A stretch of 64,000 bases of DNA, taken from an uncultured Chlamydiae bacterium. GTDB taxonomy: Bacteria > Chlamydiota > Chlamydiia > Chlamydiales > Parachlamydiaceae. Position 1 is the first letter of the stretch. Each line of letters opens with the position of its first letter. Made by a program: the position numbers and the translations under genes. Positions 38,964-53,285 of the stretch are shown here, in pieces. Under the pieces are notes generated by a model. That model was not told the DNA's origin. It did no database searches and saw only the letters and a list, made by a program, of their open reading frames with translations. Location: positions 1,600,001 through 1,664,000 of the forward strand of contig CAVWGN010000001.1 in NCBI GenBank assembly GCA_963754655.1, in the 5' to 3' direction.

Positions 38964-39011
38964 TATTATCAGACGTAGATGGAGAGTGTTATTTATTTAT
39001 TATCAGACCTT
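38964..39011 (+). repeat. Pair of TATTATCAGAC(G/C)T sites, 34 bp apart
   Basis: Same motif at 47621, 47786, 47821, 53047 and 53226. Confidence 0.7.
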
Positions 39012-39512
39012 ATAGAAGGAAGGCCTAATACAGAGAAAAATTATAGAACAGCTTTACAACCTGCGGAATGTGGGATAATACAAAATCTTTGTCAATAAAA
39101 CTGATTGCATTCGTCTCTATTGATTTTCATCCATTAATTTACTATTAGCTCTCGCAAAAATCTTTTGGCATTTATCGCCAATAACTGGTCTCGCAATAAA
39201 TTAGGAATTTTGCACAACCATTTTTGTATCGAGTTGAAATTCTTTGCCATCCCTTAATTCTTTGAAAAAACGCTCACCTAAATTCCTTTTTTTATACGAA
39301 GTTTATTGATAATGATAATCAAGTGGCGATGTTTCAACTTCCAACCGCAGTGCATCAATCTTTAATTCCTAGCGAAAAAATAAATAAATAAACATCGAAA
39401 ATTTCTTTATTTTATAAATAAAACTACAAATTTAAATAATTAATAAAATCTTAATATTATTAGTCTATTATTTAAATAGACGTGTCTTTATTTATTAAAA
39501 TAAGGCTTTAAA

Positions 39513-42500
39513 ATGAATCAAATTCCTCCTTCAAACCTTAGTTCAGCTCCTAGCCCTATTTCAGAAACTAAAAAAGAGAATTCTTTTAATAAAAAAACAG
39601 AAGATTTATCTCATTTATTTAACATAATCAAATCAACTTTTAAATCATTAACAGAAATAAAAATAAAAAGAGAAAAAATTATTAATGAAATTAGGGTATT
39701 AGATGACGAGATTAAACATATAGAAAAATCATTGAAGGATTCTAAGCAAAACACACCAGAATTAAAGAATGAACCGTCAAAAACACCTCTTGTAGGTACC
39801 TTGGTTAACGAATTTTATAATTCCACCAACAGAATTCATGATTTTAAAGTTCAAAAGAGCGAGTACGAACAAAAGCTCAAAGCTCTCCGCCTATCTCTTG
39901 TCTCTGTGGAAAAAAAGAAAATAGATAAGATATTTGAGTTAGAAAGTCAAATACGCATTCTTCTCGAAAAGGATTTTCCTGAAAAGGAGAAATACCAAAA
40001 AATTTATTTACAGAATGTTTTACCCCTTGTTCAAGAAATTAAGCAATCCCTTATTCAAAGGCCTTTCCAATTTGTCGCTCAAGCAGCAGCAGCCAAAGGA
40101 AAGGCAGCTCAGGCAGGCTTACAAGCATTAAAACAATTAGCTGAAAATAAGCCTGTTATGAAAAATGGCGGAGTCTCAACACAAGAAGTCTTTTTATTAC
40201 CCGAAGAAGGAGTTGTTTTTAAACATTCAAATGAAAGGGCAAAAGAAGAGGAACGTCTTGTTAATGATTTATTGGACTTAATGTCTAAGCAGGCAGTTGT
40301 CGGGATATTCAATATTCAACATGTATCGGCAGACAAGTTTGGTATTCAATTTTCAGAAGGACAAGCAAGGGGATTTACTGCCGATGATCTTTCTAAGTCG
40401 CCTAGTATACGCGACGGCATCGAGCAAAAATTATCGGATCATGATCGCCTACTTTTGAAAAAGCATGAGGCAACTCCGACAAAAGTAGATACAGCCTTAG
40501 AAAACTATGAGAATGTGAAAAAACAAACTTGGTTTATCAAGCCTCCAGGGAAAGATGGGGAGTGGGAATCAGTTTCCTTTAGTGATTTACAGAAGTTAAA
40601 CTTAGTTCATCAATTGCCCGCCGGTGCTCTGATTGGAACGGCTCCAGAATCAGATAAAATCCTCTCCTTTCAAGATCATCTTTTAAAAGAGACAGACTTT
40701 GCTCGTGCATTAAATTATTTACCTGCTTTGCATAGCTCACCTAACACCTTGTATTTTTCACCTGACTTAAGCAATCCAGAAATCAGAAAAGCTTATGAGA
40801 CCTGTGAAAAATATCAATGGAGATATGTAGATGAAAATGGAAAAAGCCACAAAGTTGATTTTAAAACCCTGCAAACACTTTGTCTTCAAAAAACGAAAAT
40901 GAAAGGTGTTCTACGCCCTATCCAGAATAAAGAATTGTTGCCTCATTCACAAACCTATTATTTTAACACCTTAGCAAAACAAGCATTGGATGCTAACTGG
41001 AAAGCCATTAGCCCTGAATTAATGCATGTCGACGCGACTGGCGGTCTCGCCAATTTAAAAGATATTCAAGCGAAGCCATTTATAGGCGATATGATTCTAA
41101 TGCATCAGTTGGATTCGAATACTAAAGAAGTCATCTTACAAAGATTGACTCCAGATGCTGAATTTAATGCCGTTTTAACAGGCGAAGTTCAACTGCTTGA
41201 TATGCATGCAAAGAATTTAGGGATTGCTCCTCAATCCAATGCCGAATATGAACGCTACACAAATTTTGAATTTTCAATTTCTTCTTCCCCTCCTCTCAGT
41301 TTGCAAAACTTAATTATTGGATATTTAAGAGGTTATCTCCCACCAGATACAATAATTAAGTTTGAAGAGGAAGGAAAAACGATTACCAAACCTTTAAAAG
41401 ATTTGCCTGAATTGCAGAAAGCTTTAGATGTTCACTGGCAGTTTGTTATTTTTGATACAGACTTATCTCTATCAGAAGACAATCGCTTACAGCTTCAAAC
41501 CCGTGGAGGGGTAGAAGAACATTTGATCCCTTTGCGCTCTGCTCTATTAGAAACAAATTGGAAAGATCGGCCTTTAAGTAAGAAAGCCATCCAGACTTTA
41601 ATGAATAGTGCTGAACGCGATCTTCGCGTTGCCGATTGGATCAAAAGAGCAGATGCACCCATTTATAAACAGCTTTCCCCTTCTGCAAGACAAAGTGTCA
41701 AACAACAAGTAGCTCCTCTCATTCAAGAGTATACGCTTAGTGAACCGCGAAAAAAAGATCCGGCCACTATGACAACGATAAAGAGCTTACAAGATCAATT
41801 TATCCAAAAACTTTCCGATATAACTCAACCCAATCATTTAGCGATTTGGCAAACGTTAGAGAAAGACTTATCCTCTGTTGCGGTTCGCCCAGAGGACACT
41901 TGGGAAAAAATAGCTCAGCGCTATCATCAAGATCCAATTGAATTGAGCACTTTAAATCCTCAAGGTCTTAAACCAGGGGAAAAAATCAAAATTAAATATG
42001 ATCTGACCTCTTCTGCTGCTGAAGCAGCTAAGAAAAGAGAAATGATCGCTCCTCAACTATTCCCTCGCCTCACGCAGCGGCAACAAGCTGCCTTAATAGA
42101 ACGTCAGCAGAGGCGAAGAGACTATCTCAATAATTATCAAGCTCTTTTCCAATCGACTTTAACAGGAAAAGAGCTGTTGGATCAAATCAAACAATTTGTC
42201 CAACGAGCTGAGACCCCGATGAATTCTATAGAAAAAGAAAAATTCTTTACTGATTGTGAGGCTCATGAAGCATCCATTCTCTCATCTCCAACTCGTTTAT
42301 CGAATATTAAGCAATTCATTTGCAAAATATGTCAGCCAACTTATTTTAACTTGATGAAAGTTATGTATCCTTTGCTATCCGATGCTTATGTTTTAAATGA
42401 GATTGCCTATAGAGGAGATCAAGCAACAGCTGGCCAGTCTATCGGGTCATTTAACGCGCCTTTAGAGAAGATGATCTCACATGTTAAAGCAAGTTTTCCC

Positions 42501-42587
42501 CACGATTCTATTGAAGTGCGCTTAGCTAAAAATCTAGAAGATCAAATTGGATCTATTCGCAATCCTGCCTTTTTTGGACACTGGTAG
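39513..42587 (+). CDS. Large putative effector: coiled coil, atypical (PI-kinase/HipA-like) kinase motifs, LysM
   Basis: GGVS..VF..VVFK..E, LDMHAKNL, FDTDLSL; VRPEDTWEKIAQRY...L..LNP..LKPGEKIKI. Confidence 0.7.
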   Translation: MNQIPPSNLSSAPSPISETKKENSFNKKTEDLSHLFNIIKSTFKSLTEIKIKREKIINEIRVLDDEIKHIEKSLKDSKQNTPELKNEPSKTPLVGTLVNEFYNSTNRIHDFKVQKSEYEQKLKALRLSLVSVEKKKIDKIFELESQIRILLEKDFPEKEKYQKIYLQNVLPLVQEIKQSLIQRPFQFVAQAAAAKGKAAQAGLQALKQLAENKPVMKNGGVSTQEVFLLPEEGVVFKHSNERAKEEERLVNDLLDLMSKQAVVGIFNIQHVSADKFGIQFSEGQARGFTADDLSKSPSIRDGIEQKLSDHDRLLLKKHEATPTKVDTALENYENVKKQTWFIKPPGKDGEWESVSFSDLQKLNLVHQLPAGALIGTAPESDKILSFQDHLLKETDFARALNYLPALHSSPNTLYFSPDLSNPEIRKAYETCEKYQWRYVDENGKSHKVDFKTLQTLCLQKTKMKGVLRPIQNKELLPHSQTYYFNTLAKQALDANWKAISPELMHVDATGGLANLKDIQAKPFIGDMILMHQLDSNTKEVILQRLTPDAEFNAVLTGEVQLLDMHAKNLGIAPQSNAEYERYTNFEFSISSSPPLSLQNLIIGYLRGYLPPDTIIKFEEEGKTITKPLKDLPELQKALDVHWQFVIFDTDLSLSEDNRLQLQTRGGVEEHLIPLRSALLETNWKDRPLSKKAIQTLMNSAERDLRVADWIKRADAPIYKQLSPSARQSVKQQVAPLIQEYTLSEPRKKDPATMTTIKSLQDQFIQKLSDITQPNHLAIWQTLEKDLSSVAVRPEDTWEKIAQRYHQDPIELSTLNPQGLKPGEKIKIKYDLTSSAAEAAKKREMIAPQLFPRLTQRQQAALIERQQRRRDYLNNYQALFQSTLTGKELLDQIKQFVQRAETPMNSIEKEKFFTDCEAHEASILSSPTRLSNIKQFICKICQPTYFNLMKVMYPLLSDAYVLNEIAYRGDQATAGQSIGSFNAPLEKMISHVKASFPHDSIEVRLAKNLEDQIGSIRNPAFFGHW

Positions 42588-42636
42588 CATTGGTTCTTCC
42601 AAGGATACGACTCGGCAATGTGATAATGCAAAACAT

Positions 42637-52627: not shown

Positions 52628-52656
52628 AATTCGCTAGACTCAATTAGTCGAATTTT

Positions 52657-52690
52657 AAAAAAGCCTCTAATGCTTAATTAGAGGCTTTTT
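52657..52690 (+). terminator. Intrinsic terminator (possibly bidirectional)
   Basis: AAAAAAGCCTCTAAT-GCTTA-ATTAGAGGCTTTTT. Confidence 0.8.
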
Positions 52691-52894
52691 ATTTTCACGA
52701 ATTTCTTTAGAAATTAATCATCATTATCATTTCCTTTTACAAGTTGTTTTCTTTATAAATCAATGATTATAATAATGATAATTTTTTGCTAATAATTCAG
52801 GGTATTTTTAATAAAATATTTGACAATTGCAGCCCTTCAGGCTTGCATGACACAACTCATTCATACCCAGGGTGTTGCCCCATACGCATCAAAC

Positions 52895-52964
52895 TAAGAG
52901 ATGAGCGTAGGCTACGCGACGCATTCAGTCGCCACGCCGCTTCGCTCTGGGCTCTAGGTGAGGG
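52895..52964 (+). repeat. Partial copy of the GC-rich structured repeat
   Basis: TAAGAGATGAGCGTAGGCTACGCGACGCATTCAGTCGCCACGCCGCTTCGCTCTGGGCTCTAG matches 32401-32462. Confidence 0.8.
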
Positions 52965-53285
52965 GGGTGTTGTCCTGGTCTATTATAGCGATTTTAAAAT
53001 TATCCTAATAGTCAAAAACTCATGTAATCTACTAACGACTCTTTTTTATTATCAGACGTTAAAAGAGGTTTTGTTGATCCTCAAAAGCGGTCAGCAGATG
53101 CAAATCGAATTGTTTTGCTGCCAATATCAAACCTACCCTGACTGGAAAAATTCAAGGGTTTCCTGGAAGGGTAAGTTGGTTCAGAGAATCTCATTGAGAA
53201 TAGCTAATGCAAATGAGTTAATAAATATTATCAGACGTTAAAAGCCTGGATTTATTTTACCTAAATTCAATACGTACTGAATCCT

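What the first reader, a model, noticed from the sequence alone, without database searches (positions are those of the whole stretch)
38964..53245. Accessory island punctuated by seven co-oriented recombination-site-like motifs (possible Xer/dif cassette array)
Seen: TATTATCAGAC(G/C)T occurs at 38964, 38998, 47621, 47786, 47821, 53047 and 53226. All copies are in non-coding DNA, all on one strand, all between tex and CPAF, and twice they occur as pairs 34-35 bp apart. The reverse complement reads ACGTCTGATAA + a 6-bp AT spacer (TAAATA, TAAAAA, TATTTA...). The other side falls mostly into two classes (GACT(C)TTTTT and TTATTT). Known: E. coli dif is GGTGCGCATAA-TGTATA-TTATGTTAAAT, with an 11-bp XerC arm ending in ATAA. 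The 53226 copy (ACGTCTGATAA-TATTTA-TTAACTCATTT) fits this 11-6-11 layout with a degenerate XerD arm. Inference: these are scars of serial Xer-mediated integrations delimiting cargo modules (kinase-LysM, amidohydrolase, methyltransferase and HigBA; the repeat protein; toxin-immunity), i.e. an effector-capture platform. Alternative: Tn3-type resolvase half-sites (TGTCYGATAA), given the resolvase remnant at 44445.
Basis: partly seen in the sequence, partly recalled or inferred. Interest (0 to 1): 0.8.

Follow-up and report, generated by a model that had tools for sequence, protein, structure and literature searches.

The report
One-way dif half-sites mark terminus
The seven repeats are real, but they are not cassette ends: they are lone copies of one arm of the chromosome's dimer-resolution site (dif), all pointing away from it on both sides, and they likely act as directional protein-binding marks of the replication terminus in several chlamydial families.

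Summary
Observation confirmed; cassette reading rejected. The motif is the left arm of this chromosome's only dif, 33 kb beyond the window and 14 kb from the GC-skew peak. Genome-wide the 9-mer core occurs 26 times besides dif. All 26 point away from dif, and 22 lie within 150 kb of it. Five of those 22 sit inside genes such as aroC. No second arm is detectable. Four relatives with tex next to CPAF have no site in the gap, and the orientation is opposite to what integration at dif would leave. In coding DNA the word is avoided in the reverse orientation and far from dif. The same polarity holds in 11 of 14 high-count relatives scored (191 of 207 sites). Likely mechanism (inferred): a single Xer protein binds each half-site with its permissive inner face toward FtsK heading for dif. 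The sites would work like Bacillus XDS sites that unload SMC. One family has arrays without SMC. The scan reported this system before, from the next window of this genome (e1-8049818; only its summary seen). Tested here: avoidance, SMC co-occurrence, the FtsK face match, a Bacillus comparison.

The parts
38966..38976 (-). dif left-arm half-site (second of a tandem pair, 34 bp spacing). The dif itself lies outside the window at G000:C1:1696783-1696810, 33 kb past the window's end; polarity flips there
39000..39010 (-). dif left-arm half-site, identical to the arm of the real dif
47623..47633 (-). dif left-arm half-site within the first copy of a 134-bp duplication (47608-47740)
47788..47798 (-). 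dif left-arm half-site (second of a tandem pair, 35 bp spacing)
47823..47833 (-). dif left-arm half-site within the second copy of the 134-bp duplication (47809-47939, 88% identical)
53049..53059 (-). dif left-arm half-site
53228..53238 (-). dif left-arm half-site; the sequence beyond the spacer is no closer to a D arm than background
36831..54271 (.). 17.4-kb accessory insertion between tex (34470-36830) and the S41 protease gene CPAF (54272-56113): IS elements, amidohydrolase, methyltransferase, HigB/HTH pair, TPR protein. It hosts seven half-sites but is not delimited by them

Best explanation
The seven motifs are lone copies of the left arm of this chromosome's dif site, part of a set of 26 that all point away from dif, and each likely binds one Xer recombinase as a non-recombining, directional mark of the terminus. 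SHOWN: arm identity, polarity, clustering at dif, no second arm, copies inside genes, avoidance of the reverse orientation and of origin-side DNA, recurrence in seven families. INFERRED: (1) XerC or XerD binds the half-site alone. (2) Orientation is set by FtsK: the translocase heading for dif meets the inner face, which lets it pass, and a reversed site would stop it. (3) The selected job is most likely to unload Smc-ScpAB near the terminus, as XerD does at Bacillus XDS sites; this would explain why even correctly oriented copies are missing from origin-side genes. The island is simply unconstrained DNA near dif where copies arose and were duplicated. About 0.85 for 'polar Xer half-site marks, not cassettes'; about 0.5 for the whole chain.
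For: 9-mer on leading vs lagging strand 26:0 with dif excluded; 22 of 26 within 150 kb. Synonymous-codon shuffles of this genome's genes: reverse orientation 0 observed vs 13.9 expected (18 of 34,380 comparable 9-mers as low); beyond 600 kb, both orientations 0 vs 15.8 (18 of 38,038); within 150 kb, array orientation 5 vs 1.2. 191 of 207 sites point away from dif in 14 scored relatives, including complete G076 46/46 and G052 27/28. The variant GTCCGATAAY is polar too: G076 17/19, G052 6/6. 33 of 102 listed sites (8 of the 102 are difs) lie in ORFs of 150 aa or more. The same peptide is spelled with or without the motif by synonymous codons in 3 of the 21 site-orthologue comparisons. Positions 17-27 carry no information over 138 half-sites. 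PMC2800217 section 11: XerD on a half-site stops FtsK about 5-fold better from its outer than from its inner face, which matches the geometry here. XerC, XerD, FtsK-gamma, SMC and ScpB are all in G000. Ten or more copies occur in 35 of 93 SMC-positive vs 9 of 207 SMC-negative genomes; family medians are 3.7 vs 1.4 excess copies per Mb, while controls are about 1 per Mb in both. Family f27 (SMC 0/29) shows no polarity: 12 away, 15 toward, 5 ambiguous. In Bacillus subtilis/pumilus-group genomes, copies of the other (XerD) arm have the same geometry, 25 of 27.
Against: There are no binding or functional data. E. coli XerC alone binds its arm weakly and did not block FtsK, so the chlamydial proteins must behave differently. 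Family f13 (G030, G061) has polar arrays (8/8, 7/7) but no SMC by three searches. 17 of 93 SMC-positive genomes have three copies or fewer. G003 (same genus) has none in 40 kb around dif and G085 none in 100 kb. G257 (7/13), G186 (12/17) and G262 (2/4) are not clearly polar. Relatives were picked for high counts, and kin are not independent. 17 of the 22 near-dif copies are intergenic and several arose by duplication. G138 carries a different insert with six copies in the same tex-CPAF gap. By a plain Markov model, about 50 other 9-mers are also absent from the lagging strand. Three more distant Bacillaceae genomes score 0 of 3. The XDS paper could not be read.
Confidence: 0.5

Rival explanations
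1. One-way valves for FtsK are the job itself. Xer-bound half-sites let FtsK pass toward dif and stop motors running away from it, and SMC is incidental.
For: The geometry is the one predicted from PMC2800217. FtsK-gamma is present in 5 of 5 array genomes tested, including SMC-less f13. In G076 the polar copies reach about 1.3 Mb from dif and thin out with distance (23, 10, 8, 4, 1 per 300 kb).
Against: It does not explain why correctly oriented copies are missing from G000 genes beyond 600 kb (0 vs 6.8). f27 has the same dif arm but no polarity. The link to SMC is left unexplained. A separate KOPS-like octamer appears to exist.
Confidence: 0.25
2. A replication fork trap: the bound protein blocks forks that overshoot dif, as Tus does at ter sites.
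For: Polar sites flank the terminus. The GC-skew peak (C1:1682741) lies between the innermost left and right copies. Tus was not found in 5 of 5 genomes.
Against: Permissive copies should be neutral far from the terminus, yet they are avoided in G000 genes. I know of no precedent for Xer as a fork barrier (recalled). RTP was not searched.
Confidence: 0.07
3. One reading: scars or attachment sites of serial Xer-mediated cassette capture.
For: The arm equals the dif arm. 17 of 22 near-dif copies lie in variable intergenic DNA. G138 has an independent insert with six copies at the same junction. 53047 looks like a hybrid of the two flank classes.
Against: Four of four empty junctions lack a site (best match 3-4 mismatches of 11). 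There is no D arm. Copies lie inside aroC and other conserved genes. Duplication borders fall at about +24 to +31, not in the spacer. In G076 and G267 the dif arm has C where most half-sites have T. Acinetobacter dif-module islands alternate C/D and D/C full sites. A gene flanked by sites in G138 has none in G085.
Confidence: 0.07
4. A different, unidentified terminus-binding protein (or a Tn3-type resolvase) reads the word, and the likeness to the dif arm is shared ancestry or coincidence.
For: There is a resolvase-like remnant at 44442. Arrays are patchy even within one genus, as expected if an accessory gene were needed. E. coli XerC binds poorly alone.
Against: The half-site profile (positions 0-12) mirrors that of the dif arm, including the tolerated C variant. 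The copies are single or tandem-direct, not the paired inverted half-sites of res sites (recalled), and they track dif in seven families.
Confidence: 0.08

Closest known systems
XDS sites of Bacillus subtilis (XerD unloads Smc-ScpAB at the terminus; Karaboja et al. 2021, PMC7897262, not held; known here only through passages of PMC11840125, PMC11894783 and PMC12322038)
   Same: Extra dif-like sites in the terminus region, in a genome with Smc-ScpAB. D-arm copies in subtilis/pumilus-group genomes have the same outer-end-toward-dif geometry (25 of 27); that these copies are the published XDS sites is my inference.
   Different: Here the multiplied arm is the left (XerC-type) one; the Bacillus left arm shows no such enrichment. 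Copy number is up to 46, spread over most of each arm in some genomes. Arrays also occur without SMC (f13).
XerCD/dif with FtsK; face-specific stopping of FtsK at dif half-sites (PMC2800217)
   Same: The single full site is an ordinary dif. The half-site orientation is the one that would let FtsK pass toward dif.
   Different: That result is in vitro, for E. coli XerD on engineered half-sites. E. coli XerC alone did not block.
KOPS (FtsK-orienting polar sequences)
   Same: Strand-polar, flips at dif, denser near dif.
   Different: A 9-13-bp word with tens of copies, identical to a recombinase arm and avoided far from the terminus. A separate G-rich polar octamer exists in this genome.
pdif/dif-module islands of Acinetobacter (PMC12907356) and IMEXs such as GGI and TLC (PMC5357621)
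   Same: Several dif-like sequences near accessory genes. GGI and TLC sites keep the XerC arm and lose the XerD arm.
   Different: No alternating full sites, no site at the empty junction, copies inside core genes, and orientation opposite to the product of integration at dif.
matS/MatP and Tus/ter terminus systems
   Same: Repeated sites confined to or polar about the terminus.
   Different: Tus was not found; MatP was not searched. The site is a dif arm, not a palindrome.

Membership tests
chromosomal dif (site at C1:1696810) | single 11-6-11 site at the terminus, with XerC and XerD encoded | tested here: met
   Only match in G000; 14 kb from the skew peak; the pattern is in 261 of 301 phylum genomes, mostly once. 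XerD passes the TIGR02225 cut-off; XerC is best to TIGR02224 but below its cut-off.
Xer/dif cassette array (pdif modules, IMEX) | each site has two arms | tested here: not met
   No information at positions 17-27 in 138 half-sites
Xer/dif cassette array (pdif modules, IMEX) | the empty locus retains a target site | tested here: not met
   G003, G182, G320 and G016 tex-CPAF gaps, 4 of 4
Xer/dif cassette array (pdif modules, IMEX) | sites alternate (pdif) or face dif as integration products do (IMEX) | tested here: not met
   26 of 26 point away from dif
Xer/dif cassette array (pdif modules, IMEX) | sites bound modules and do not lie inside core genes | tested here: not met
   Two copies in chorismate synthase; 33 of 102 listed sites in ORFs
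Xer/dif cassette array (pdif modules, IMEX) | excised circles or recombination between sites | not testable with these tools
   No run holds the stretch well enough
XDS (Xer-bound SMC unloading sites) | extra dif-like Xer sites concentrated at the terminus | tested here: met
   22 of 26 within 150 kb of dif
XDS (Xer-bound SMC unloading sites) | Smc-ScpAB encoded | tested here: met
   SMC and ScpB in G000; ScpA-like ORF seen by eye. Not met in f13.
XDS (Xer-bound SMC unloading sites) | bound by XerD | tested here: inconclusive
   By position the arm is the XerC-type one. But it is the longer conserved arm in chlamydial dif, and XerD has V at the place of E. coli Q221.
XDS (Xer-bound SMC unloading sites) | unloads SMC in vivo | not testable with these tools
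   Only co-occurrence and avoidance patterns
KOPS | polar on both replichores, flipping at dif | tested here: met
KOPS | frequent octamer along the whole arms | tested here: not met
   26 copies, avoided far from dif; the shorter TTATCAGA is not skewed (119:105)
Tus/ter fork trap | Tus protein encoded | tested here: not met
   PF05472 in 0 of 5 genomes; RTP not searched
Tn3-type res site | cluster of paired inverted half-sites beside a resolvase gene (recalled) | tested here: not met
   Copies are single or tandem-direct and spread over more than 1 Mb

The most novel reading that the evidence does not exclude
Several chlamydial lineages have turned one arm of dif into a chromosome-wide system of one-way gates. 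Lone Xer recombinases on tens of polar half-sites steer or confine DNA motors (FtsK, with or without SMC) at the terminus. The same polarity rule also governs Bacillus XDS sites, which makes it a general second role of Xer proteins in chromosome architecture.
Probability: 0.3. Interest if true: 0.8.

Novelty: new variant of a known kind. Interest (0 to 1): 0.6.

Why it matters
How chlamydiae organise and segregate their terminus is poorly described in what I could search, and C. trachomatis divides without FtsZ (PMC11975371, listing and one passage). This gives a concrete cis-element, candidate proteins and a directional rule that can be tested in vitro. It would extend the non-recombination role of Xer proteins beyond Firmicutes, to the other dif arm and to a lineage without SMC. 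It may also give an in-genome sign that the face-specific FtsK block seen in vitro shapes chromosome sequence. Practically, it warns against reading repeated dif arms near accessory genes as cassette arrays.

Tried and rejected
- The primary XDS paper was not held by PMC id or DOI; I used second-hand passages. Its text or supplements may already report XDS orientation.
- Paper searches listed nothing on polar dif-arm arrays in chlamydiae. Most subscription papers are not searched.
- The PWM scan was trained on 19 of the sites, so it is circular. The plain 9-mer counts replace it.
- One search was cut; it was rerun with a filter.
- included the probably spurious ORF; one search dropped it.
- Canonical KOPS octamers (recalled) are only weakly skewed in G000 (82:50 and 59:38).
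- A recalled parS consensus found nothing; this is no evidence.
- G157 was not scored for polarity (its dif position was not among the listed places). G089 was dropped (SMC not scored). Bacillus handles G330, G339, G344 and G316 were not in the listed part; G316 was mixed.
- Counts were transcribed by hand, and one copy per genome was subtracted as dif.
- The 1024-aa ORF and the two small ORFs at 53286-54037 had no informative Pfam or NCBIfam match, so the 'kinase-LysM' and 'toxin-immunity' labels are unverified.
- Earlier-finding look-ups were empty.
- MatP and RTP were not searched. No structure or complex was predicted.
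Full report
1. Observation. The seven 13-mers are at the stated places, on one strand, six exact and one with a single change. 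The window is C1:1600001-1664000 of a 3.16-Mb genome. All 14 exact copies of the 11-mer lie within 150 kb of one point.

2. That point is dif. C1:1696810 (minus strand) reads AGGTCTGATAA TATACG TTATGTTTATA and is the only match to GTCTGATAA-N6-TTATG in the genome. The cumulative GC-skew peak is at 1682741. The pattern occurs in 261 of 301 genomes of the phylum, mostly once, with reversed-pattern controls near zero; 12 of 301 carry a C variant. XerD passes its NCBIfam cut-off and a second recombinase is best matched to XerC. PMC3025954 (passages) predicted dif in 14 of 14 Chlamydiae and lists the reference sites. By position the repeated word is the XerC-type arm.

3. The copies are polar. Excluding dif, the 9-mer core occurs 26 times on the leading strand and never on the lagging strand (11:0 and 15:0 per arm), and 22 of the 26 are within 150 kb of dif. 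Every copy has its outer end toward dif and its spacer side toward the origin. The window's seven, plus an eighth at 7667-7677, belong to the left-hand group. Five near-dif copies lie in genes, two of them in chorismate synthase.

4. Selection acts on the word. Against synonymous-codon shuffles of G000 genes, the reverse orientation is seen 0 times vs 13.9 expected. Both orientations beyond 600 kb are seen 0 times vs 15.8. The array orientation within 150 kb is seen 5 times vs 1.2. Only 18 of about 35,000 comparable 9-mers are as depleted in either test. A plain Markov model is less discriminating: about 50 other 9-mers also have zero lagging copies. Orthologue comparisons show gain or loss by point change. 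Three of 21 comparisons keep the core peptide with synonymous codons; three rows show two sites shared by G000 and G002 (aroC and a second gene); the rest differ in amino acids or do not align.

5. Relatives. On dif-bearing contigs, dif excluded, sites pointing away from dif: G002 15/15, G138 13/13, G051 12/12, G055 11/13, G103 5/5; G076 46/46, G052 27/28, G258 9/9, G267 17/17, G257 7/13; G030 8/8, G061 7/7, G262 2/4, G186 12/17. The total is 191 of 207. These genomes were chosen for high counts. G021 adds 12/12 in 35 kb, giving seven families. Polarity does not depend on the strand of dif itself. Arrays are patchy: none near dif in G003 or G085. Family f27 (1.0-1.4 Mb; probably Chlamydiaceae, my inference from size) has the same dif arm but 12 away and 15 toward. 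So polarity is not an automatic result of strand composition.

6. Cassette test. tex and CPAF are 23-307 bp apart in G003, G182, G320 and G016, with no arm in the gap. The 17.4-kb island is therefore a real insertion without a Xer target. Over 138 half-sites there is no signal where a second arm would be. Crossing a C-D dif with an element carrying a good C arm and a poor D arm leaves the remnant facing dif on the C side, and an intact D arm on the other side. The genome shows neither (inference; IMEX site types from passages of PMC5357621). Acinetobacter dif-module islands alternate full sites (PMC12907356: abstract and sections 10 and 24). The window's copies partly derive from duplications whose borders miss the spacer. 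Accessory DNA near dif does collect these sites.

7. Mechanism. PMC2800217 (passages and section 11) shows that XerD on a dif half-site stops FtsK about five times better from the outer than from the inner face; XerC alone did not block. The chlamydial sites present the inner face to any motor moving from origin to dif. This would explain the ban on the reverse orientation. Passages of PMC11840125, PMC11894783 and PMC12322038 report that XerD unloads Smc-ScpAB in the B. subtilis terminus, at dif-like XDS sites; I could not read the primary paper. G000 has SMC and ScpB. Ten or more copies occur in 35 of 93 SMC-positive and 9 of 207 SMC-negative genomes, a link confounded by kinship. In 11 subtilis/pumilus-group genomes with extra copies on the dif contig, D-arm copies share this geometry (25 of 27); three more distant genomes gave 0 of 3. 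I therefore commit to: Xer monomers on half-sites, oriented to suit FtsK, unloading SMC near the terminus (0.5). The main difficulty is f13, with arrays but no SMC. That keeps FtsK gating as the primary job at 0.25. Which Xer binds is open. In 12 difs the right arm is conserved for only 7 bases, and XerD has V where E. coli has Q221 (that this residue reads the outer arm is recalled). Tandem copies are never closer than 34 bp, and 7 of 21 short gaps are 34-36 bp, which is room for two Xer footprints.

8. Novelty. It works like XDS or KOPS, but is not a demonstrated member of either, and it is not a pdif or IMEX array. Nine paper searches listed no description in chlamydiae; PMC11975371 and PMC12479847 (passages) add nothing on half-sites. 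The scan had already reported the same reading from the next window (e1-8049818). I recorded my reading before seeing it, and it is not independent evidence. Two other notes mention lone dif-arm copies in other genomes (e1-800329, e1-1487354; unchecked here). Verdict: real, new variant of a known kind, interest 0.6.

Noticed in passing
G000:C1, both replichores: Candidate KOPS: AGGGGAGT is on the leading strand in 24 vs 2 and 32 vs 3 five-kb bins on the two arms, the best-skewed dispersed octamer; GGGGGAGT gives 15:0 and 19:1.
   Followed up: partly
window 38966-39010, 47788-47833; G000:C1 1717623/58, 1726344/79; G002, G138: Tandem half-site pairs 34-36 bp apart recur in three genomes; no pair is closer than 34 bp.
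   Followed up: partly
L021:1441-2328 (XerD): XerD has RVTVW where E. coli XerD has RQTFW, and the outer four bases of the right dif arm vary freely in 12 genomes. Arm specificity may have shifted.
   Followed up: partly
G138:C22:275211-280494: An independent 5.5-kb insert with six half-sites in the tex-CPAF gap; this junction is a repeated insertion point.
   Followed up: partly
G076:C1:3021592; G267:C2:410117: dif carries C at the position where most half-sites carry T; G267 has a further full site on contig C3.
   Followed up: partly
G030 and G061 (family f13): Polar arrays without SMC; G061 keeps a ScpB homologue and G030 does not.
   Followed up: partly
G000:C2: The 35-kb second contig is chromosomal: it overlaps the first 9.4 kb of C1 at 99.7% and carries scpB, a scpA-like ORF and ribosomal-protein genes.
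   Followed up: yes
window 36882-38646 and 48540-50299: Two copies (the second broken) of a resolvase + TnpB element (IS607-like, label recalled), with about ten near-identical copies in the genome; an IS200-type tnpA at 46422-46853.
   Followed up: no
window 32932-34134: A 400-aa protein of Myb-like DNA-binding repeats, a eukaryote-type domain.
   Followed up: no
G000:C1:184758 (L023): A third tyrosine recombinase, phage-integrase type with an arm-binding domain, 12 kb from the skew minimum.
   Followed up: no
G000:C1:1719766-1728097 and 1769549-1801255: Long tandem runs of one repeat-protein paralogue family near the terminus; two half-site pairs lie in a duplicated segment beside such genes.
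   Followed up: no
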